From IMG/VR virus record IMGVR_UViG_2875713109_000004: a DNA stretch of 18,564 nt; one strand, written 5' to 3'. This document shows positions 1-6,986 of the stretch, piece after piece (the stretch's first letter is position 1; each line of letters begins with the position of its first letter). The DNA comes from a virus. Lineage: Duplodnaviria > Heunggongvirae > Uroviricota > Caudoviricetes. Both the position numbers and the translations under genes were made by a program. The notes beneath the pieces are model-generated. The model ran no database searches. It had not been told where the DNA came from and saw only the letters and a list, made by a program, of their open reading frames with translations.

Positions 1-1254
1 TTGCTTACCGATACCAAACTGAAAAATCTGAAGCCGCAGGAGAAACTGTATAAGGTTTCCGACCGTGACGGGCTGTATGTCGCCGTGCTCACGTCAGGAT
101 CTGTCTCGTTCCGCTACGACTACCGCATTAACGGCCGCCGGGAAACGCTGGTGATCGGTCAGTACGGTCGTGACGGTATCAGCCTGGCGGAAGCGCGCGA
201 GGAACTTATTGCCGCCAAAAAGTTGCTGAAGTCAGGCCAGTCGCCTGCTGCGGCAAAACGTGACGGTATCAGGCAGATTTCCAGCGCAGAAACATTCGCG
301 GTATATACCGACGCCTACATGAAATATGTCACCCTGGCCGACAGCACCCGATCCATGAAGCAGGCGGTTATTGAGCGTGATATCCTCCCGGTGCTCGGAA
401 ACAAGATGATGACTGAGATAACCACCAGGGTGGTGCGCGACCTGTGCGATCGTATCGTCGAGCGTGGCGGCCGGGCGACGGCGATTCAGGTCAGGGAGAT
501 AATCAGCAGTGTGTACCGGTATGCCAACGACCGCGGGCACGGCCTGTTCAATCCGGCTGCCGACATTAAGCCATCATCCATCGCTATGTTTAAGCCGCGC
601 GAGCGCACACTGTCGCCAGAGGAGATCGGCATTTTCTTCCGCGCGCTGGACGACATCGGAGCGATGGGCACAATGAAGATGGCTCTCAAGCTGGTACTGC
701 TGACGCTGGTGCGAAAAAGCGAATTCACTTACGCGACCTGGGCAGAGATCGATTTCAAGAAATGGACATGGACGATCCCCGCTGACAGGATGAAGGCCGG
801 GCGTGCGCATGTGATTTACCTGCCGAAGCAGGCGCAGGATCTGCTGGTGGGGTTGCAGATGTGTGCTGGCGGCAGTGAATACCTGGTGCCCGGGCGCTAC
901 AACTTCCGTAAGCCGTTATCGAACGCGGCGCTGAACTCGCTGGTAAACCGTACCGTGGAGGCCATAAACAGAGACGGCGAGAAGATACAGGACTTCACGG
1001 TGCATGACCTGCGCCGCACTGCCAGCACGCTGCTGCACGAAGCGGATTATCCTTCAGACTGGATCGAGAAGGCGCAGGCGCATGAGCAGAAGGGCGTGCG
1101 GGCGGTGTACAACAAAGCGGAGTATTCTCGGCAGCGCGCCTATATGTTGCAGCAGTGGGCAGATATGGTTGATGCCTGGATTAAAGGGGAGCACACCGAT
1201 CTGGTGCCGTTCTCCCCGTCGAAGTTTGAGAGGTGGACGGAAGGTAAGGATTAA
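1..1254 (+). CDS. int: Tyrosine recombinase / phage integrase (P4-like family); 5' end at or just beyond the window start
   Basis: ORF track 417 aa; N-terminal LTDTKLKNLKPQEK...GLYVAV resembles P4-type integrase N-terminus; C-terminal catalytic region has HDLRRT...H...Y pattern consistent with R-H-R-Y tyrosine recombinase residues. Frame opens at position 1 with TTG so true start may lie upstream of the window. Confidence 0.88.
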   Translation: MLTDTKLKNLKPQEKLYKVSDRDGLYVAVLTSGSVSFRYDYRINGRRETLVIGQYGRDGISLAEAREELIAAKKLLKSGQSPAAAKRDGIRQISSAETFAVYTDAYMKYVTLADSTRSMKQAVIERDILPVLGNKMMTEITTRVVRDLCDRIVERGGRATAIQVREIISSVYRYANDRGHGLFNPAADIKPSSIAMFKPRERTLSPEEIGIFFRALDDIGAMGTMKMALKLVLLTLVRKSEFTYATWAEIDFKKWTWTIPADRMKAGRAHVIYLPKQAQDLLVGLQMCAGGSEYLVPGRYNFRKPLSNAALNSLVNRTVEAINRDGEKIQDFTVHDLRRTASTLLHEADYPSDWIEKAQAHEQKGVRAVYNKAEYSRQRAYMLQQWADMVDAWIKGEHTDLVPFSPSKFERWTEGKD

Positions 1255-1258
1255 GCAG

Positions 1259-1609
1259 CTATTCAAGCTTAACACCAGGGATGTCGCTTGCAGCTATAGC
1301 GTCGTAAATTGCCTCCGCTGTCTTGCTGGCATCCCTTACCAATAAGCAAGCTGCATCGATGGCGCTTATAGCTGCATCACGCTTCTTATCTGCTTCTGAG
1401 CGGATATGGCGGAATCGATGAGCTTGGGAGGTATTTATGCAGTCAAGTCCACGAAATCTCGGGTCTTCTCCAAGCCATGTAAATGCGATTCCATCCATAG
1501 TTATGCATTCTACTCGAACCTTCTTAATTCCATATCCATTCGTTTCGTACTCACACTCACAACCAACCTGAGGCAATCCCTCGCCATCCCATTCTGTAAT
1601 ATTTTTCAT
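1259..1609 (-). CDS. Hypothetical protein (116 aa), last gene of leftward methyltransferase operon
   Basis: Internal ATG (MKNITEWDGEGL...) of track ORF 1259..1741; ATG overlaps stop of upstream methyltransferase gene (ATGA, 1606-1609); GGGAG Shine-Dalgarno about 9 nt upstream. No recognisable family. Confidence 0.45.
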   Translation of the reverse strand: MKNITEWDGEGLPQVGCECEYETNGYGIKKVRVECITMDGIAFTWLGEDPRFRGLDCINTSQAHRFRHIRSEADKKRDAAISAIDAACLLVRDASKTAEAIYDAIAASDIPGVKLE

Positions 1610-2253
1610 GCCGCACGCTCCCGGCCCTGGTTGTCTGTTGGTGACAACGGAGCATTTGCGAATGCCCGCGTCATCCCGGCGATATCCAGCGCGTAGCCAG
1701 GTTGCAACTGCACCGCTGGACCTTTGCACTGGTTGCCCCATACGTCGAAACCATGCGACGACTGGCGGGCGAACAACTCGATGCGCGGCACATCTCCCAG
1801 CAACTGCACCAGTTTTTCCCTGATCACGTCAGGCTTTCGCGAGTTCTCCAGGCGTGGCGCCGTGACGTGCTGGCAGATAGAGGCGTCCATGCGCGCCGGG
1901 AGTTTCCCGCGCACCGCGAAAAGGCAGTCTTCGCTGTTCGCCCTGGTCATGTGTCCCATGCCGATCTCGCTGTTGCCTTTGTGCTTGTTCGTCTTATGCC
2001 AGGTGAATCCCTTCATTGTCATCAGCTTGAATCCCCACGCTTCGACAACCTTCAACGCTTCAACCGGCTGCGTCGGAACCCACCACATCGCGAGCAGGCA
2101 ATCTTCGGCGGCCAGGTCCCACACCGGCAGGCGGCAGATATCCAGCACGTTCATGACCGGGTATTTGAACCCGGCGCCGCGGTTGCCGTCTGCTGCTTTG
2201 TCGCGGTATACCCAGGGCGGGTCAGCGTAGATAAGAGTGTATTTTCCGGTCAT
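1606..2253 (-). CDS. DNA methyltransferase, beta-class amino-MTase (MT-A70-like, DPPW motif near N-terminus); likely N6-adenine
   Basis: Track ORF 215 aa; motif LIYADPPWVY near N-terminus is the hallmark motif IV of MT-A70/beta-class N6A/N4C methyltransferases; AAGGTGG SD 6 nt upstream; start overlaps upstream stop (ATGA). Confidence 0.78.
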   Translation of the reverse strand: MTGKYTLIYADPPWVYRDKAADGNRGAGFKYPVMNVLDICRLPVWDLAAEDCLLAMWWVPTQPVEALKVVEAWGFKLMTMKGFTWHKTNKHKGNSEIGMGHMTRANSEDCLFAVRGKLPARMDASICQHVTAPRLENSRKPDVIREKLVQLLGDVPRIELFARQSSHGFDVWGNQCKGPAVQLQPGYALDIAGMTRAFANAPLSPTDNQGRERAA

Positions 2254-2408
2254 GCTGCCACCTTCTTGCTGTTCATCAGCTCAGCCAGGCGCTGAGCCTT
2301 CAATAGGTTTCTGATAACCTGGCCGCCTGGTGCCAGCCACCCGCGGCGCAGTGTTGAATAAAACAGCGTGATGCTGCCGACGCGGATATTGTCGTGAGGG
2401 CTAGTCAT
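2250..2408 (-). CDS. Small hypothetical protein (52 aa)
   Basis: Internal ATG (MTSPHDNIRV...) of track ORF 2250..2582 placed so that it starts 5 nt after the stop of the upstream PerC-like gene and its stop overlaps the methyltransferase start; weak SD. The longer track ORF would overlap the upstream gene extensively. Confidence 0.3.
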   Translation of the reverse strand: MTSPHDNIRVGSITLFYSTLRRGWLAPGGQVIRNLLKAQRLAELMNSKKVAA

Positions 2409-2700
2409 AAACCACCCCGCGACATCCGATCCCGCTGTAATCCAGGTGCGGGGTGCGGTTACCTTTGGTGATGCACTGCTGGCGGCGCACCGCGATTCGG
2501 GCGCGCTCCACTTCACCGACGGCAGCATCCAGACACTGTAGCCATAGTCTGGCTGCGATTCGGTAATGCCCGCGGCGCTCACGCTCGATGGCCCGGCTTT
2601 CGATCTCCATCGCTTCCGGAGTTACTGCCACAACTTTTTCAGTTCCGCGCTGCGATGCTTTGTTCATGTGATATTTTTCAAGGCGGGTTAATTTTCTCAT
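2401..2700 (-). CDS. PerC/ANR-family-like small transcriptional regulator
   Basis: Internal ATG (MRKLTRLEKYHMNKAS...) of track ORF 2401..2784; motif ERERRGHYRIAARLWLQCL resembles the G-x-WRRAA-x-RWL signature of PerC/ANR small regulators (recalled from memory, not searched). Alternative start at 2667 (MNKAS). Confidence 0.45.
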   Translation of the reverse strand: MRKLTRLEKYHMNKASQRGTEKVVAVTPEAMEIESRAIERERRGHYRIAARLWLQCLDAAVGEVERARIAVRRQQCITKGNRTPHLDYSGIGCRGVVYD

Positions 2701-2809
2701 TTGATCTACCCATCTCAACTGATTACCGCCGCCAGCCACATCAGGTAGGCGACCACGGCCAGATACAGGTAAACATCTGACCATCTTCCGATATGCTTTT
2801 TCAGCGCCG

Positions 2810-3058
2810 TCATGCTGCTGCGCTCACCGGGCGATACACTCGGCGGTCAACTGGCGGCTTTTTTCCGGTGAACGTCGCCGGGCTTGCCGCCTTACGTTTA
2901 TCCAGCCAGGCTTCAACTTCGCTCTGGTCCCACGCGCAGCGGCGATCGGTGATCCAGAAACGAGACGGAAATTTGCCAGCCTGTTCCAGGCGGTCAATCG
3001 TGCTCCATGACAGTGGCACCACCGCCAGGAGTTCCTTCTTACCAAACGCACCTTTCAT
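2810..3058 (-). CDS. AlpA-family phage regulatory / excisionase-like DNA-binding protein
   Basis: Track ORF 82 aa; segment FPSRFWITDRRCAWDQSEVEAWL resembles AlpA/Xis-type winged-helix proteins; GAGAGG SD upstream of ATG at 3058. Confidence 0.7.
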   Translation of the reverse strand: MKGAFGKKELLAVVPLSWSTIDRLEQAGKFPSRFWITDRRCAWDQSEVEAWLDKRKAASPATFTGKKPPVDRRVYRPVSAAA

Positions 3059-3107
3059 AAATACCTCTCTTGGTTGCAGGTGTGGCGCCGCGGCGCCACA
3101 GTGGTGA

Positions 3108-3989
3108 TTACATAGGGACGTTGTTCAGCTCATCACGGCGGATGGTGTAAACGTCTGTTGCTTTAGCCAGGAGCTCATCATCGTTAGCGAGCTTGCTGGC
3201 AACGTATTTGTATGCCTTATCAAGATCCTTCAGCGTGTTGTAGTTCATCGCTGCGTCAGTGAAAGCGCACAGAATTTCTTCAGGATCGCGGTCATCACTG
3301 CTCTTCGGCTTCTCTTCCTGGTGCTGCTCAGGCTTGGAGTTGATCAGCTTGTTCATGCCTGAGGCGGTGGCGGGCGTCGGCGTGATATCGCGCTCAACGC
3401 GTGGTGCTGTCTCCTGCAATTCGTCAGGGGTGTACACGCCAAGCAGGACGTCTGGAGCATTCAGTCGCGCCCAACGCTTAACGCACAGGTATGCCAGTTG
3501 CTGGCGTGGATCCTGCTCCCACAGAGGGGAGTTACGCACACCGGCCTGCGCCATGCTGATCGTCAGCTCGCGCGGTTCTGATTCTCCTTTGAGGGTCGCC
3601 CACACGGTTACTGTCAGGTTCGGCGATTTGTCGGATTTCCCGTTTACTTTCGACCAGTCACCGTCCCAGCGATAATTCAGGCGGGTGGCCAGCAGATTGG
3701 AGGAGGACACAACCGCGTTAACCAGTTGCGCTTCATATCCCAGCGTGCCGTTTACCACGTGAGTTTTCTGAGCCACGGCGAACGGGTTCATTCCCCACTG
3801 TGCAGCCTGCATAGTCACTGCCAGGCAGTCAGCAGGCTTACCTGCCAGGTGTGCCGGAACAGTGGCCTTACTGTCAGCCATCAGGGTTGCGAAACGCACC
3901 AGGCGGTCCATACCCTCAGGGCTGAATATTGCCGCAGCGGTGCCAACTGTAGCGCCAGGCTGCGATGTGATTGCGATGTCGTTGCTCAT
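3108..3989 (-). CDS. recT: RecT-family single-strand annealing recombinase
   Basis: Track ORF 3108..4016; start placed at internal ATG (MSNDIAITSQ...) whose ATG overlaps the stop of the upstream exonuclease gene (ATGA at 3986-3989). Sequence resembles prophage RecT proteins as recalled; paired with a nuclease gene as expected for a RecET-type module. Confidence 0.8.
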   Translation of the reverse strand: MSNDIAITSQPGATVGTAAAIFSPEGMDRLVRFATLMADSKATVPAHLAGKPADCLAVTMQAAQWGMNPFAVAQKTHVVNGTLGYEAQLVNAVVSSSNLLATRLNYRWDGDWSKVNGKSDKSPNLTVTVWATLKGESEPRELTISMAQAGVRNSPLWEQDPRQQLAYLCVKRWARLNAPDVLLGVYTPDELQETAPRVERDITPTPATASGMNKLINSKPEQHQEEKPKSSDDRDPEEILCAFTDAAMNYNTLKDLDKAYKYVASKLANDDELLAKATDVYTIRRDELNNVPM

Positions 3990-4807
3990 ACGTACATATC
4001 CTGTTTGCGTGCCCACTCAGGGCGTTTAATAATTTCAAATCCACCCCATTCGCCTGACTCCCGGCACTGGTGGTAGGTATTCAGATCCCGGCGGAACAGT
4101 GCATGCCCGGCATCTACGTCTGTCGCATCCAGCTCGAACACGCGCACCGGGTAGCGGCCACAGTCGATGGTTTCGCTCACTGCCAGGAAGAAGAATCCGT
4201 GCGGCTCACCGGTGGTCTGCTGCGCGCCTTCGCGGTACATGGCGTCCTGAACGTGGTACCGGAATTCTTCGACGTGGCGGGCGAAGCGCTCCATGTCTGC
4301 AACTTTCTTCACGTCCAGCAGCACCGGGTGATACTTCAGCCGCTTGTCCGGGCGGATGCGGCACAGCTCGCCAGTCTCCGGATCCGTCCAGTAATGCGAT
4401 GCTTCGCAGAATCCTTCCGCTTCAAGCAGCCAGCGCGATGCCGGGTGAGCCATTGCGCTATCACGCATCAGCTCCAGTTTCCGCCACTGCTCTTCATCAA
4501 GTACCGAAATACCCATATCCGCCACATCACGAAGAAATGCCTCTTCGTCAGCTTTACCTTGTTTCGTCCGACGATCGAATTTCGGTGAAACAATGAAGCG
4601 TTTGTCGAACTCTCCAGGCTCCAGAAGCAGACAGTGCAATGCGGTTCCCATATCCAGTGCAGACTTTTTCTCTTCGTCTTCTGGTGCTGCCTGAACCCAT
4701 TTAAGAAGCGCCGGATTCTTGGCTACCATGTCCAGTTGCGACTTACTCACGCCGTCACCGGCGTGGTAGTCTTCGTTGCTGATGTCGAAATAAATTCCCG
4801 GTTTCAT
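3986..4807 (-). CDS. PD-(D/E)XK-family exonuclease (RecE-like partner of RecT)
   Basis: Track ORF 273 aa; region ...RIRPDKRLKYHPVLLDVKKV... fits a D...(D/E)xK nuclease core; position immediately upstream of recT with overlapping stop/start; AGAGGGA SD upstream of ATG at 4807. Confidence 0.7.
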   Translation of the reverse strand: MKPGIYFDISNEDYHAGDGVSKSQLDMVAKNPALLKWVQAAPEDEEKKSALDMGTALHCLLLEPGEFDKRFIVSPKFDRRTKQGKADEEAFLRDVADMGISVLDEEQWRKLELMRDSAMAHPASRWLLEAEGFCEASHYWTDPETGELCRIRPDKRLKYHPVLLDVKKVADMERFARHVEEFRYHVQDAMYREGAQQTTGEPHGFFFLAVSETIDCGRYPVRVFELDATDVDAGHALFRRDLNTYHQCRESGEWGGFEIIKRPEWARKQDMYV

Positions 4808-5103
4808 GCCGCGTCCCTCTGTCCATCAAGCTGATCCGCCAGATCCCAGCGGGCGATAATTGCCATTGCCTCGCGCCGGTAGGCATCCATCAGTTCTTCG
4901 AACTCAGGGCTGTCTTTAGCAGCCTCCAGTACTTCCTGACGAACGCCTTTGCCTGTTACAACGTCGAAAGTTGAGGACAGTTGATGAAGTCGGATGCTCT
5001 CAATCAGTTCAACTTGTCGGTCATATAGCTGTTCTGACAGGTGGTAGTCCTTGTCGAATGCCAGCATGATTTTTTGAAGATTTTTCTGCTGATTAACGTT
5101 CAT
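4804..5103 (-). CDS. Hypothetical early protein (99 aa)
   Basis: Internal ATG (MNVNQQKNLQ...) of track ORF 4804..5118 with strong GGAGGG SD upstream; stop overlaps start of exonuclease gene (ATGA). Confidence 0.5.
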   Translation of the reverse strand: MNVNQQKNLQKIMLAFDKDYHLSEQLYDRQVELIESIRLHQLSSTFDVVTGKGVRQEVLEAAKDSPEFEELMDAYRREAMAIIARWDLADQLDGQRDAA

Positions 5104-5105
5104 TA

Positions 5106-5258
5106 TCAGCCCTCCCATATCTCGTTATCGTTGGCCACATCGCGAGCTTCTTTGCTGACGAAAGCCCACTTGATGCCTTCCTGTAAGGTGCGGCACTTGG
5201 TGCTCATCAGCCCGCACGCCGTAACGCAGTACCAACCGTTGATGATTTTCCACTGCAT
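5106..5258 (-). CDS. Small Cys-containing hypothetical protein (50 aa), first gene of leftward early operon
   Basis: Hand translation of minus strand: MQWKIINGWYCVTACGLMSTKCRTLQEGIKWAFVSKEARDVANDNEIWEG; below the ORF-track size cutoff; stop lies 2 nt before next gene start; TGAGGT-like SD upstream. Coordinates hand-derived, could be off by a few nt. Confidence 0.3.
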   Translation of the reverse strand: MQWKIINGWYCVTACGLMSTKCRTLQEGIKWAFVSKEARDVANDNEIWEG

Positions 5259-5275
5259 AATTCGTTACCTCAGTG

Positions 5276-5352
5276 TTACCGTTGGGGTAATAATTATCCT
5301 TATGTGGTTTGAAGTCAATAGGTATGATTATAAAAAATTACCCGTAAGGTAA
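5276..5352 (-). promoter_or_regulatory. Leftward early promoter region with two perfect TTACC-N5-GGTAA operator palindromes (5276-5290 and 5338-5352) and a TATAAT -10 (minus strand, 5327-5332)
   Basis: Read directly: gTTACCgttggGGTAAt and aTTACCcgtaaGGTAAt; minus-strand TATAAT at 5327-5332 with the 5338-5352 palindrome sitting where a -35 would be. Confidence 0.55.
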
Positions 5353-5361
5353 TTCTAAGGG

Positions 5362-5390
5362 CAATAAAAAAGCCGCTCAATGGCGGCTTA
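5362..5390 (-). terminator. Rho-independent terminator downstream of repressor gene
   Basis: Minus-strand hairpin AAGCCGC-cattga-GCGGCTT followed by TTTTTTATT (plus-strand aaaaaagccgctcaatggcggctt). Confidence 0.6.
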
Positions 5391-5409
5391 ATATCTGAAA
5401 TGTATGGAG

Positions 5410-6000
5410 TTATTCTTGAGTTTTACCGTTCTGAACAATCACGAAATCGACGTAGCTCTCGATCTTGCTTTTCTCGCTCTCAGGTAACAATGCGTAGCGG
5501 GCCCGGTCGTAATGGATGGTCGCCGGGTCGCGAGGATGGATGAGCAACTCATAGCCGCGGCGGCCGAACGCGCTGGCGATCGCCTCCAGGGTGGAGATGG
5601 AAACGCTAACCTCATTGTTCAGCATGCGGTTGATTGTCGCCTGGGCAACGCCGGACGCCTTCGACAGCTTACCCTGGGAGGACAGGTCGCGGTTGTTCTG
5701 CATCCACGCTTCGAGGTTATGCGCCGCCAGCTGGCCGATATCGGAAGGGGTGATCTCCTCCTGGGGGATGGCAACAGCAGATAATGAGTGGTCGACGTCC
5801 AGCCAGTTCGACGGTTTGTTCGCTGCCTTCTCAATCTTGCGCGCCACCGTGTCGCCGACAACCTTCTGCCCGCGGGCCCAGCGGTTCACCAGGTTTGCCT
5901 GAGTTCCCAGTTTTTCCGCCAGACGAGTCTGCACCCCGTTAAAGTCACGGTCGATGATATCGTTAATATTCTGCCTGCGGATATCCTGAATACTTTTCAT
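5410..6000 (-). CDS. Prophage repressor, tandem helix-turn-helix architecture (186-CI-like N-terminal HTH), no S24 peptidase domain
   Basis: Track ORF 196 aa; two HTH-like segments (QTRLAEKLGTQANLVNRWARGQ and LSKASGVAQATINRMLNNEVS); no Ala-Gly cleavage site plus Ser/Lys peptidase domain seen; divergent from a Cro-like gene across an operator-rich intergenic region. Confidence 0.75.
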   Translation of the reverse strand: MKSIQDIRRQNINDIIDRDFNGVQTRLAEKLGTQANLVNRWARGQKVVGDTVARKIEKAANKPSNWLDVDHSLSAVAIPQEEITPSDIGQLAAHNLEAWMQNNRDLSSQGKLSKASGVAQATINRMLNNEVSVSISTLEAIASAFGRRGYELLIHPRDPATIHYDRARYALLPESEKSKIESYVDFVIVQNGKTQE

Positions 6001-6055
6001 GCTCTGGTGAATCGCCTCATATATGAATTAGTTAGTGGTTCAATTAAAAGCGAAT

Positions 6056-6118
6056 TTACCTCACAGGTAAATGCACCCGACAGGTAACAAACCTTGATTT
6101 TTATTACCTTCTGGGTGA
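6056..6118. promoter_or_regulatory. Divergent immunity-region operator/promoter array: perfect TTACC-N5-GGTAA (6056-6070), degenerate copies at 6073-6087 and 6104-6118, candidate rightward promoter TTGATT (6094-6099)
   Basis: Read directly: tTTACCtcacaGGTAAa; gcaccCGACAGGTAA; TTACCttctgGGTGA. Three-site arrangement between repressor and cro-like gene resembles lambdoid OR organisation. Confidence 0.6.
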
Positions 6119-6154
6119 ATATTTGTTATCTGAAATTAATATCAGGCAATAGCT

Positions 6155-6385
6155 ATGAGCGAGAACGAAAAATTCGACTTCAAAAAACACTGGTTGCAAC
6201 TCACTCCTGATGAGCGAAATGCCTTTGCTGACGAGGCCGGAACGACCAGCCACTACATCCAGACTCATCTGACAGGCCGCCGGAAAATGCCCGGTAAGAC
6301 ATTGATGAATGGGCTATTTAAGGCATGTAAACAACGCGGATGGGTCAGAACTAAGCCTGAACTGGCTATCTTCTTCTACGAATAA
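6155..6385 (+). CDS. Cro/CII-like small HTH regulator
   Basis: Track ORF 76 aa; segment AFADEAGTTSHYIQTHLTGRRKMP resembles small phage HTH regulators (Cro/CII/YdaS-like); divergent from repressor. Confidence 0.6.
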   Translation: MSENEKFDFKKHWLQLTPDERNAFADEAGTTSHYIQTHLTGRRKMPGKTLMNGLFKACKQRGWVRTKPELAIFFYE

Positions 6386-6405
6386 AAACTCCTTCTAAAC
6401 CCCAT

Positions 6406-6430
6406 CAGGCCGCCTTCTGGCGGTCTTTTC
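6406..6430 (+). terminator. Rho-independent terminator immediately downstream of cro-like gene
   Basis: Hairpin GGCCGCC-ttct-GGCGGTC (one G-U pair) followed by TTTTC; 20 nt after cro-like stop. Confidence 0.5.
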
Positions 6431-6534
6431 ATATCTATTCAGTCCTCTCAGGTAATAATAATCCGAATATGGTTGATCTTTTTTCGGCCATCGCACAAAA
6501 TCATCGTAACCATAACCAGAATCTGAGGTGAAGT

Positions 6535-6744
6535 GTGGAGATTATCACTCGTATGTCAGCCGCGAAGGCTGGACTGAAGCGTTATTACACCGGAAAGCAG
6601 TGTAAGCGAGGCCATGACAGCGAGCGCTGGGTTTACAACGGCCATTGTGTGGAATGCACCATGGAGTCAAACCGCAGGCGCCAGGCAGAGATTAAACGGA
6701 TTATGGATGAAGCTGCGAAAGGCAACGTGCCGGAGGTGATCTGA
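6535..6744 (+). CDS. Small putative zinc-binding protein (69 aa)
   Basis: Track ORF; motif CKRGHDSERWVYNGHCVEC (C-x3-H ... C-x2-C); GAGGTG SD before GTG at 6535 (alternative ATG at 6553). 3' end overlaps the convergent minus-strand ORF by about 44 nt, so one of the two may be shorter or spurious. Confidence 0.4.
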   Translation: MEIITRMSAAKAGLKRYYTGKQCKRGHDSERWVYNGHCVECTMESNRRRQAEIKRIMDEAAKGNVPEVI

Positions 6745-6928
6745 TGGCGCGCAGCTCAGCCATCGGGCCATCAACATTAAAGCCATCATCACCCAGCTGG
6801 CGCAGCAATGTCATCAGGTGCGAATCTTCAACAAGGGAGCGAACGCCTCCCGGCGTGTGTATACGTTCGGCAAAGCCTTTTTCCAGCGGGTGATGATACT
6901 GACGTTGCATCTGATATTCTCCATGCAT
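6701..6928 (-). CDS. Small ORF directly downstream of a LexA box; candidate SOS-controlled antirepressor (function inferred from context only)
   Basis: Track ORF 75 aa (MHGEYQMQRQYHH...); second ATG at 6910 has GGAG SD about 8 nt upstream and is the more likely start; LexA box sits 4 nt upstream of the first ATG. No recognisable domain. Confidence 0.35.
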   Translation of the reverse strand: MHGEYQMQRQYHHPLEKGFAERIHTPGGVRSLVEDSHLMTLLRQLGDDGFNVDGPMAELRAIRSPPARCLSQLHP

Positions 6929-6929
6929 T

Positions 6930-6949
6930 CACTGTATTTATGTACAGTA
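6930..6949. promoter_or_regulatory. LexA (SOS) box
   Basis: cACTGTATTTATGTACAGTA: perfect CTGT-N8-ACAG with AT-rich spacer, 17 of 20 matches to TACTGTATATATATACAGTA by hand alignment. Confidence 0.7.
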
Positions 6950-6986
6950 GCAAAAGTCCAAGTGACTATCCAGAACGAATTGCCAT

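What the first reader, a model, noticed from the sequence alone, without database searches (positions are those of the whole stretch)
5410..6000. Repressor with tandem HTH domains and no autocleavage module
The 196-aa repressor appears to carry two HTH-type DNA-binding segments and lacks any LexA/CI-like S24 peptidase region (no Ala-Gly cleavage site, no Ser-Lys dyad context). Such repressors cannot self-cleave after RecA activation and are normally inactivated by a separate antirepressor (as in coliphage 186 Tum and Gifsy-type prophages). A single polypeptide with two HTH units facing a palindromic operator is an unusual arrangement worth structural attention.
Basis: partly seen in the sequence, partly recalled or inferred. 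Interest (0 to 1): 0.55.

Follow-up and report, generated by a model that had tools for sequence, protein, structure and literature searches.

The report
Known antirepressor-controlled prophage repressor (Rep)
This gene encodes the master repressor of an epsilon15-like prophage in E. coli, a close relative of the already crystallised Salmonella phage SPC32H Rep that is switched off by a small SOS-induced antirepressor rather than by self-cleavage, so the finding is correct but ordinary; the only twist is that here a 25-kb deletion has cut the antirepressor gene short.

Summary
The 196-aa ORF at 5410-6000 (minus strand) is real. It has two HTH-type segments: aa 24-67 is just below Pfam's HTH_3 cut-off and aa 108-148 is above it. 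It has no S24 peptidase domain and no Ala-Gly or Cys-Gly dipeptide. It is a full-length orthologue (46% identity, E 1e-48) of the Rep repressor of Salmonella phage SPC32H (PDB 5D50, 5D4Z). In SPC32H Rep the N-terminal HTH is the DNA-binding domain, the second HTH-fold is described as a dimerisation domain, and the C-terminal tail tetramerises and binds the antirepressor Ant. The idea of two HTH units both facing the operator, and its novelty, are not: phiV10's RefSeq note already records "two helix-turn-helix motifs".

The window is an E. coli chromosome segment holding a 15.5-kb remnant of a Uetakevirus prophage at guaA. The cognate ant gene lies at 6701-6910 behind a perfect LexA box (6932-6947). 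A 25.5-kb deletion (junction 6752/6753) removed ant codons 54-86 together with all replication, packaging and virion genes. Candidate operators (TTACC-N5-GGTAA) flank rep and recur upstream of the tailspike and holin genes.

Verdict: new member of a known kind; low interest.

The parts
5410..6000 (-). rep: 196-aa prophage master repressor (SPC32H Rep orthologue)
   Evidence: ORF. PDB 5d50_A E 1.2e-48 over aa 1-192. 46% identity to SPC32H rep. Foldseek top hits 5d50/5d4z.
5776..6000 (-). Rep N-terminal HTH domain (aa 1-75), inferred operator-binding domain
   Evidence: HTH_3 21.3 bits and YdaS-type HTH 24.2 bits, both below cut-off. Four helices at aa 4-59. Net charge +3.8, pI 9.9 across the family. 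Called the DBD in SPC32H Rep (PMC9986798).
5521..5745 (-). Rep middle domain (aa 86-160): canonical XRE/Cro-C1 HTH fold, equivalent to the dimerisation domain (MDD) of SPC32H Rep
   Evidence: HTH_3 34.9 bits, HTH_26 34.2 bits. Five helices at aa 88-153. Aligns to 5d4z (Rep 92-198), E 4.6e-23. MDD role taken.
5413..5520 (-). Rep C-terminal tail (aa 161-196), equivalent to the tetramerisation/Ant-binding domain (CAD)
   Evidence: Aligned to 5d4z/5d50. Helix 174-194. No Pfam family. CAD role taken from PMC9986798.
5370..5389 (-). intrinsic terminator after rep
   Evidence: Terminator scan.
5276..5290 (.). OL-type operator palindrome TTACCGTTGGGGTAA, next to the -10 of a leftward promoter-like site (5318..5290)
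   Evidence: Equivalent sites in phiV10, Tyrion, BUCT711 and SPC32H.
5338..5352 (.). OL-type operator palindrome TTACCCGTAAGGTAA, abutting the -10 of a second leftward promoter-like site (5380..5352)
   Evidence: The 62-bp spacing to the 5276 site is also seen in relatives.
6056..6070 (.). OR operator O1, perfect palindrome TTACCTCACAGGTAA
   Evidence: Conserved in 5 Uetakeviruses.
6073..6087 (.). OR operator O2 (GCACCCGACAGGTAA), 17 bp from O1
6104..6118 (.). OR operator O3 (TTACCTTCTGGGTGA), between the conserved -35 TTGATT (6093-6098) and the -10 of the rightward promoter
   Evidence: Promoter hexamers read from the sequence.
6155..6385 (+). cro-like 76-aa gene divergent from rep
   Evidence: phrog_35 'transcriptional repressor', E 2.7e-10; the same PHROG also matches the Rep N-terminal domain. 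Syntenic with SPC32H_042.
6701..6910 (-). ant': truncated antirepressor gene. Codons 1-53 of 86 remain, fused to 16 unrelated codons.
   Evidence: 82% identity to SPC32H Ant over aa 1-56. PDB 5d50_E 'Anti-repressor protein', E 1.1e-26. Intact 86-aa Ant in the sibling prophage. Breakpoint.
6752..6753 (.). junction of a 25.47-kb deletion (2-bp overlap) that removed replication, terminase, portal, capsid and tail genes and the 3' third of ant
   Evidence: Window 1-6753 = L020 1407-8159 and window 6752-17170 = L020 33630-44052. Gene map of the intact prophage.
6932..6947 (.). LexA (SOS) box CTGTATTTATGTACAG immediately upstream of ant'
   Evidence: The only zero-mismatch CTGT-N8-ACAG in the window. 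The same box is at the same place in SPC32H and BUCT554.
6987..7001 (.). perfect operator palindrome TTACCTGAAAGGTAA in the ant/tailspike intergenic region
   Evidence: Equivalent sites at SPC32H 20013 and BUCT554 27548.
13631..13645 (.). operator-like site TCACCTTTAGGGTAA upstream of the holin/lysis operon
   Evidence: An identical 15-mer sits upstream of the SPC32H holin operon (24782). Overexpression of the ZX5 repressor cut holin/endolysin mRNA by >99.9% (PMC9782041).

Best explanation
The gene encodes Rep, the lysogeny-maintaining repressor of an epsilon15-like (Uetakevirus) prophage integrated at the 3' end of guaA in E. coli. It has three modules: an N-terminal Cro/YdaS-like HTH domain, a second canonical XRE-type HTH-fold domain, and a short C-terminal tail.

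By orthology with SPC32H Rep (inferred, not shown here), it would work as follows:
- The middle domain makes dimers and the tail joins two dimers into a tetramer.
- The N-terminal domains pair on 15-bp palindromes (TTACC-N5-GGTAA) at the leftward and rightward early promoters and at further promoters (tailspike, lysis).
- The protein is not cut after RecA activation.
- DNA damage instead removes LexA from a box in front of the small ant gene. The 86-aa Ant tetramer then binds the Rep tail and N-terminal domains and pulls Rep off the DNA as dimers.

In this window the switch is broken. A 25.5-kb deletion removed ant codons 54-86 and every replication, packaging and virion gene. Rep, which is 100% identical to that of intact sibling prophages, probably now acts as a permanent lock and immunity factor on a remnant that still carries recombination, tailspike, O-antigen-modification and lysis genes.
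For: Shown here:
- Full-length homology to PDB 5d50_A 'Repressor' (E 1.2e-48) and 5d4z, with 46% identity to the SPC32H rep CDS.
- Foldseek of the AF2 model returns the 5d50/5d4z Rep-Ant entries first.
- Same gene order as SPC32H, BUCT554 and the intact E. coli prophage.
- No S24 domain and no AG/CG dipeptide.
- The ant homologue matches 5d50_E 'Anti-repressor protein' at E 1.1e-26 and sits behind a perfect LexA box.
- Operator palindromes are strongly over-represented and lie in regulatory gaps: window 20 hits against 5.7 expected, SPC32H 18 against 0.65, BUCT554 14 against 0.49. Their layout is conserved in five phages.
- The deletion is mapped to the base.
- The exact Rep sequence occurs in 907 collection blocks and the exact Ant' fusion in 52.

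From papers:
- SPC32H Rep has a DBD, an MDD and a tetramerisation/Ant-binding domain (PMC9986798).
- Rep binds DNA as a tetramer, and the Ant tetramer binds two Rep dimers and breaks the tetramer (PMC9638917).
- LexA-controlled Ant inactivates the repressor by protein-protein contact (PMC7380047).
- The E. coli Uetakevirus ZX5 has a repressor 75% identical to this one. Overexpressing it abolished free phage and cut holin/endolysin transcripts by >99.9%, and overexpressing its antirepressor lowered lysogeny (PMC9782041).
Against: - Nothing here measures oligomeric state, DNA binding, Ant binding or resistance to RecA-stimulated cleavage for this protein. All are transferred from a 46%-identical homologue.
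- The primary SPC32H papers were not available, so domain roles rest on secondary descriptions and my recollection of the abstract.
- The operator assignment is a sequence inference.
- The middle domain is, by sequence, the more canonical HTH (34.9 against 21.3 bits). A residual DNA contact by it cannot be excluded from sequence alone.
- Whether Ant' (53 native residues) is truly inactive is inferred only from conservation of the lost C-terminal third (24 of 33 residues identical to SPC32H).
Confidence: 0.87

Rival explanations
1. Both HTH units of one polypeptide bind DNA. A Rep oligomer would then present N-terminal and middle HTH domains to the operators, or to a second class of sites.
For: - The middle domain scores as a bona fide Cro/C1 HTH above Pfam cut-offs.
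- It keeps a conserved recognition-helix-like motif: Q120, T122 and R125 are nearly or fully invariant.
- MDD plus tail weakly resembles stand-alone small phage repressors: NCBIfam RstR at 22 bits, 3vk0 NHTF at E 0.002, phrog_13326 at E 3e-24.
Against: - In the solved homologue this domain is described as the dimerisation domain and the N-terminal one as the DBD.
- Its net charge is about +1, against +3.8 for the N-terminal domain.
- Aligning the rep/cro-like intergenic region of five phages shows no conserved repeat class other than TTACC-N5-GGTAA and the promoter hexamers.
Confidence: 0.07
2. It is a cryptic LexA/CI-type repressor that still self-cleaves after RecA activation through an unrecognised catalytic region.
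For: None beyond its position as a prophage repressor next to SOS-responsive elements.
Against: - No Peptidase_S24 match at E<=1 for the whole protein or for its parts.
- No AG or CG dipeptide.
- Only about 40 residues follow the second HTH-fold domain, too few for an S24 fold.
- The full length is accounted for by the 5d50 Rep architecture.
Confidence: 0.01
3. It is not the master repressor but an XRE-family accessory regulator or a HigA-like antitoxin carried by the prophage.
For: Weak sub-threshold matches to HigA (TIGR02607, 22 bits against a 47.7 cut-off; 6af3 at E 0.0046) and to 'plasmid antitoxin with HTH domain' (phrog_1381, E 6e-4).
Against: - No adjacent toxin gene.
- It occupies the classical cI position, divergent from a cro-like gene and flanked by operator clusters.
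- These hits are generic HTH similarity, far below cut-offs.
Confidence: 0.03

Closest known systems
Rep/Ant switch of Salmonella phage SPC32H (epsilon15-like; PDB 5D50 Rep-Ant complex, 5D4Z Rep 92-198; Kim & Ryu 2013, Kim et al. 2016)
   Same: - Same three-module protein of the same length (196 against 198 aa), 46% identity end to end.
- Same gene neighbourhood: early-left operon, rep, divergent cro-like gene.
- Same ant gene divergent from the tailspike gene, behind a LexA box.
- Same TTACC-N5-GGTAA operator core and layout.
- No S24 domain.
   Different: - Different host genus (E. coli/Enterobacter rather than Salmonella).
- Inner operator bases differ (TTACCT..AGGTAA against mostly TTACCA..TGGTAA).
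- Rep has diverged far more than Ant (46% against 80% identity).
- In this window ant is truncated and the prophage is defective.
Repressor ORF21 / anti-repressor ORF4 of E. coli Uetakevirus vB_EcoP_ZX5, and phiV10 p40
   Same: - 75% identical repressor.
- Same guaA attachment core: ATTGAGTGGGAATGATT is found at window 15645-15661.
- The phiV10 RefSeq record already notes two HTH motifs.
- Repressor and antirepressor roles were tested by overexpression in ZX5.
   Different: Those are complete, inducible phages. No structural or operator work has been done on them, and this window holds a deletion remnant.
Coliphage 186 CI/Tum and Gifsy/Fels-2 repressor-antirepressor pairs
   Same: Same logic: a non-cleavable repressor that is inactivated by a LexA-repressed small antirepressor.
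   Different: No detectable sequence relationship: there is no Phage_CI family match. The repressor architecture and the mode of antirepressor action differ, since SPC32H Ant does not compete for the DNA-binding surface.
Lambda CI / P22 C2 / LexA (S24 autocleaving repressors)
   Same: - N-terminal HTH DNA-binding domain.
- cI-like map position.
- Multiple operators at divergent promoters, and oligomerisation.
   Different: No S24 peptidase domain and no Ala-Gly site. The SOS signal enters through LexA control of ant rather than through RecA-stimulated cleavage of the repressor.

Membership tests
SPC32H-type Rep (Uetakevirus repressor, PDB 5D50/5D4Z) | Full-length sequence homology covering the N-terminal DBD, the middle dimerisation domain and the C-terminal tail | tested here: met
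   phmmer E 1.2e-48 over aa 1-192 to 5d50_A, and E 4.6e-23 over aa 91-192 to 5d4z. BLASTP 46% identity over 195 aa. Foldseek top 12 hits are all 5d50/5d4z.
SPC32H-type Rep (Uetakevirus repressor, PDB 5D50/5D4Z) | cI-like position in an epsilon15-like genome, divergent from a cro-like gene | tested here: met
   Gene maps of SPC32H, BUCT554 and the E. coli sibling prophage compared with the window.
SPC32H-type Rep (Uetakevirus repressor, PDB 5D50/5D4Z) | Cognate small Ant gene next to the tailspike gene, under a LexA box | tested here: met
   The ant homologue (5d50_E, E 1.1e-26) and a perfect LexA box at 6932-6947 are present. The gene is truncated after codon 53 in this window and intact in the sibling prophage.
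SPC32H-type Rep (Uetakevirus repressor, PDB 5D50/5D4Z) | Tetramer that binds operators through N-terminal domains and is dismantled by the Ant tetramer | not testable with these tools
   Only single-chain prediction is available. The behaviour is transferred from PMC9638917 and PMC9986798.
SPC32H-type Rep (Uetakevirus repressor, PDB 5D50/5D4Z) | Resistance to RecA-stimulated cleavage | not testable with these tools
   The sequence is consistent with it (no S24 domain, no AG/CG), but the biochemical property needs an experiment.
LexA/CI S24 autocleaving repressors | Peptidase_S24 catalytic domain with a Ser-Lys dyad | tested here: not met
   No S24 match at E<=1 for the whole protein or for domain fragments.
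LexA/CI S24 autocleaving repressors | Ala-Gly (or Cys-Gly) cleavage site in the linker | tested here: not met
   Zero AG or CG dipeptides in the 196 residues.
XRE / Cro-C1 HTH (Pfam HTH_3, HTH_26) | Profile match above the gathering score | tested here: met
   The middle domain scores 34.9 bits for HTH_3 (cut-off 23) and 34.2 bits for HTH_26 (cut-off 22). The N-terminal domain alone scores 21.3 bits, just under the cut-off.
Coliphage 186 CI-type repressors (Pfam Phage_CI_repr / Phage_CI_C) | Profile match to the 186 CI families | tested here: not met
   No such family among the Pfam matches at E<=1. The resemblance is functional only.
CTXphi RstR family (NCBIfam NF041951) | Score above the family cut-off (80 bits) | tested here: not met
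   22.3 bits over aa 104-193. This is at most a distant relationship of the middle domain plus tail.

The most novel reading that the evidence does not exclude
In the deletion lineage the SOS switch may have been inverted. The LexA-controlled ant promoter now lies about 900 bp upstream of rep on the same strand, and the scan finds no consensus intrinsic terminator on that strand between them. DNA damage could therefore drive read-through transcription antisense to the cro-like gene and sense into rep. That would reinforce repression of a remnant that still carries an intact holin-endolysin-spanin cassette. Rep would then be kept as a domesticated lock and immunity factor rather than as part of a phage switch.
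Probability: 0.12. Interest if true: 0.4.

Novelty: new member of a known kind. Interest (0 to 1): 0.15.

Why it matters
It matters little for new biology. The non-cleavable, Ant-controlled Rep of epsilon15-like phages was described genetically in 2013 and structurally in 2016, and this protein is an uncharacterised orthologue with the same architecture, partner gene and operator core.

Three practical points follow:
- Genome annotation names this widespread protein only as an "HTH transcriptional regulator". The exact sequence occurs in 907 collection blocks across E. coli and Enterobacter. It could be named as the Uetakevirus Rep, and the 86-aa "hypothetical protein" beside the tailspike gene as its antirepressor.
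- The scattered TTACC-N5-GGTAA sites give a testable operator map for the whole genus.
- The remnant is a clean natural case of a prophage that lost its inducer and virion genes but kept its repressor, lysis cassette and O-antigen-modifying genes.

Tried and rejected
- **Primary papers.** The PNAS 2016 paper (DOI and PMC4983836), J Virol 2013 (PMC3807360) and the epsilon15 genome paper (PMC2698709) are not held. Domain roles therefore come from secondary descriptions.
- **Rep against the cro-like protein.** BLASTP found nothing. hhalign of the Rep N-terminal domain against the cro-like protein was in register but not significant (E 0.25). The only link is that both match phrog_35.
- **Genome-contig scan with Rep.** It returned only 4 species representatives and did not identify the host. 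The host came from E. coli genomes instead.
- **Did the deletion remove an ant terminator?** The intact prophage has only a plus-strand terminator hairpin downstream of ant and no consensus minus-strand terminator. The hairpin at 6407-6426 folds on the minus strand but has no adjacent U-tract. The read-through idea is therefore kept only as a low-probability speculation.
- **RNA genes.** The Rfam and tRNA scans of the window found nothing.
- **/data files.** Early Python attempts failed because some loci were not yet in /data. The junction was first approximated with DNA alignment against BUCT554 and then fixed against the 99.9%-identical E. coli sibling prophage.

Full report
**Observation.** The minus-strand ORF 5410..6000 exists as described: ATG start, 196 aa. 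The N-terminus MKSI is invariant in 33 homologues.

Pfam finds HTH_3 in two stretches (E 1.1e-13) and no peptidase family at E<=1. Scanning the parts separately gives the following:
- aa 1-75: HTH_3 at aa 24-67 (21.3 bits, cut-off 23) and a YdaS-type HTH (24.2 bits, cut-off 30).
- aa 86-160: HTH_3 at 34.9 bits and HTH_26 at 34.2 bits, both above cut-off.
- aa 156-196: no family.

An AlphaFold2 model built on the 33-sequence alignment (mean pLDDT 80) has four helices at aa 4-59, a disordered linker at 76-85, five helices at 88-153 and a long helix at 174-194. The two bundles align in register by hhalign (E 0.0027, 41 columns). The protein has no Ala-Gly or Cys-Gly dipeptide.

**Identity.** A sequence search of the PDB gives a full-length match to 5d50_A "Repressor" (199 aa, E 1.2e-48, aa 1-192) and to 5d4z_A (107 aa, E 4.6e-23, aa 91-192). 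Foldseek of the model returns the same entries first, titled [quoted passage not shown]. Generic XRE HTH domains follow (SinR, C.AhdI, P22 c2 DBD, HigA). tblastn against phage genomes places the gene in Uetakevirus (epsilon15-like podoviruses):
- 98% identity to Enterobacter phage BUCT554.
- 75% to phiV10 and vB_EcoP_ZX5.
- 67% to Tyrion.
- 43-45% to SPC32H ("rep: repressor"), epsilon15 and Klebsiella phages.

BLASTP against the SPC32H rep CDS gives 46% identity over 195 aa. The phiV10 RefSeq note for the orthologue already reads "two helix-turn-helix motifs (Pfam PF01381)".

**What is known about the family.** The primary papers were not available, so this comes from secondary sources.
- PMC9986798 describes SPC32H Rep as a DBD at the N-terminus, a dimerisation domain (MDD) in the middle, and a C-terminal domain (CAD). 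The CAD tetramerises Rep, binds the antirepressor Ant, and has a p53-like TetDloop fold.
- PMC9638917 summarises that Rep binds DNA as a tetramer. The DNA-binding domain pairs come from different dimers, and the Ant tetramer binds two Rep dimers and breaks the tetramer.
- PMC7380047 lists SPC32H among prophages in which LexA self-cleavage lets an antirepressor be made that inhibits the repressor by protein-protein contact.
- For the E. coli Uetakevirus ZX5 (repressor 75% identical), overexpressing the repressor abolished free phage and cut holin/endolysin mRNA by more than 99.9%. Overexpressing the antirepressor lowered the prophage titre (PMC9782041).

The second HTH-fold segment of the window protein therefore corresponds to the MDD, not to a second operator-reading head. 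Two observations here fit that reading:
- The N-terminal domain is basic (mean net charge +3.8, pI 9.9), while the middle domain is near neutral (+1.1).
- An alignment of the rep/cro-like intergenic region from five phages shows no conserved repeat class other than one palindrome type and the promoter hexamers.

**Partner gene and SOS input.** In SPC32H, ant (86 aa) lies on the minus strand, divergent from the tailspike gene. The window has the same arrangement.
- ORF 6701..6928 (-) matches SPC32H Ant at 82% identity over its first 56 residues. It also matches PDB chain 5d50_E "Anti-repressor protein" at E 1.1e-26.
- The homologous start is the ATG at 6910 (MQRQYHH), preceded by GGAGA.
- Immediately upstream lies CTGTATTTATGTACAG (6932-6947), the only perfect CTGT-N8-ACAG in the window.
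- The same box sits at the same place in SPC32H and BUCT554.

**Operators (inferred from sequence).** The palindrome TTACC-N5-GGTAA is strongly over-represented:

| Genome | Mismatches allowed | Hits | Expected by chance |
|---|---|---|---|
| Window | <=2 | 20 | 5.7 |
| SPC32H | <=1 | 18 | 0.65 |
| BUCT554 | <=1 | 14 | 0.49 |

The four perfect copies in the window lie in regulatory gaps.
- **OL-like sites:** 5276 and 5338, between the rep terminator and the early-left operon, next to the -10 elements of two leftward promoter-like sites.
- **OR-like sites:** 6056 (O1), with weaker O2 at 6073 and O3 at 6104. O3 lies between a conserved -35 TTGATT and the -10 of the rightward promoter.
- **ant/tailspike gap:** 6987.
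- **Holin promoter:** a one-mismatch copy at 13631 upstream of the holin gene is identical to the 15-mer upstream of the SPC32H holin operon.

The positions and spacings (17 and about 30 bp at OR, 62 bp at OL) recur in phiV10, Tyrion, BUCT711 and SPC32H.

**Context: a defective prophage.** The exact Rep sequence is widespread. It occurs in 907 collection blocks and is named "helix-turn-helix transcriptional regulator" or "putative repressor protein" in E. coli and Enterobacter.

The window is 100% identical to E. coli PSS-07 (NZ_AP027673.1) across 5300-7300. It is also 100% identical to CP035331.1 across its first 16 kb. The element sits between guaA and yfgI. The attachment core reported for ZX5 (ATTGAGTGGGAATGATT) is at 15645-15661.

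An intact 41-kb sibling prophage in E. coli USMARC-50748 aligns as follows:
- Window 1-6753 = L020 1407-8159 (99.91% identity).
- Window 6752-17170 = L020 33630-44052 (99.76% identity).

A 25.47-kb deletion with a 2-bp overlap has therefore removed the DnaT-like and P replication genes, terminase, portal, capsid and tail genes, and ant codons 54-86. What remains is a 69-aa fusion ORF. The intact Ant is 86 aa and 80% identical to SPC32H Ant, including 24 of the 33 lost residues. That conservation argues that the missing part is needed. The exact fusion protein is found in 52 collection blocks, always in the same context, so the deletion is inherited in a lineage and is not an assembly artefact.

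**Mechanism.**
- *Shown:* orthology, architecture, absence of an S24 module, presence and truncation of ant, the LexA box, the operator-like sites and the deletion.
- *Inferred from the solved and tested homologues:* tetrameric Rep binds the palindromes through its N-terminal domains. SOS induction expresses Ant, which binds the C-terminal tail and N-terminal domains and releases Rep from DNA.
- *Inferred for this window:* the Ant route is disabled and no virions can be made. Rep persists as a repressor of the remaining early, tailspike and lysis promoters and as an immunity factor.

**Rivals.** The alternatives are a tandem DNA-binding arrangement, cryptic autocleavage, and an accessory regulator or antitoxin. 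They are given low weight for the reasons listed under Rival explanations.

**Novelty and score.** This is an uncharacterised orthologue of a structurally and genetically characterised repressor family, with the same partner, context and operator core. It is a new member of a known kind. A specialist would not be surprised, so interest is 0.15. The most novel reading not excluded is that the deletion placed the LexA-controlled promoter upstream of rep on the same strand, so that SOS might now reinforce repression. The terminator scans neither support nor exclude this, and I give it a probability of about 0.12.

Noticed in passing
window 6752-6753 (junction); remnant runs from left of the window to about 15661: A 25.47-kb internal deletion relative to an intact 41-kb sibling prophage (E. 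coli USMARC-50748). It removes replication, terminase, portal, capsid and tail genes and the 3' third of ant. The result is a 15.5-kb remnant between guaA and yfgI. The deletion also makes the 69-aa ORF (6535-6744, +) and the Ant' fusion ORF (6701-6910, -) overlap by 44 bp.
   Followed up: yes
L007 and L011, compared with window 6535-6760: Other genomes carrying the exact same Rep show different internal deletions of the same prophage. In L007 the 69-aa ORF abuts a terminase-like gene. In L011 replication protein P abuts a capsid-cement gene. Both deletion variants listed keep rep.
   Followed up: partly
window 5276, 5338, 6056, 6073, 6104, 6987, 13631; SPC32H (L002) 12, 3175, 20013, 24782, 26960, 33528-33666, 34390-34437, 35972, 36034: The 15-bp palindrome TTACC-N5-GGTAA is scattered across many intergenic regions of all Uetakevirus genomes examined, including upstream of the terminase, tailspike, holin and integrase genes. 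The core is the same although the Reps are only about 45% identical. This suggests repression at many promoters and possibly overlapping immunity.
   Followed up: partly
Ant: window 6701-6910, L020 33528-33788, L002 19676-19936: Ant is far more conserved than its target. It is 80% identical between SPC32H and the E. coli prophage, against 46% for Rep. This leaves room for cross-acting antirepressors between Uetakevirus prophages, as in Gifsy/Fels-2.
   Followed up: no
Rep aa 100-194 (window 5419-5703): The middle domain plus tail alone matches a PHROG of unknown function (phrog_13326, E 3e-24). It also weakly matches stand-alone small repressors (CTXphi RstR family at 22 bits, Neisseria NHTF 3vk0 at E 0.002). 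Rep may have arisen by adding a Cro/YdaS-like HTH domain to an RstR-like HTH-plus-oligomerisation protein.
   Followed up: partly
window 7106-13712: A serotype-conversion and adsorption module survives in the remnant. It comprises a 783-aa tailspike (polysaccharide-lyase type), a 403-aa O-antigen ligase-family membrane protein (9606-10817) and a gtrA / GT2 (yfdH-like) / glycosyltransferase cluster on the minus strand (10851-13712). An intact holin-holin-endolysin-spanin cassette follows (13743-15534).
   Followed up: partly
window 15645-15661: A perfect copy of the guaA attachment core ATTGAGTGGGAATGATT reported for phage vB_EcoP_ZX5. It marks the right prophage end (attR) just before yfgI.
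   Followed up: yes
window 6910 down to 5410, minus strand: After the deletion, the LexA-controlled ant promoter lies upstream of rep on the same strand. The consensus scan finds no minus-strand terminator between them. The 6407-6426 hairpin lacks a U-tract on that strand.
   Followed up: partly
window 6535-6744 (+): A 69-aa Cys/His-rich protein (CKRGH...CVEC) conserved after the cro-like gene in all relatives (phrog_1081, function unknown). It has a weak match to an endonuclease VII PHROG family.
   Followed up: no
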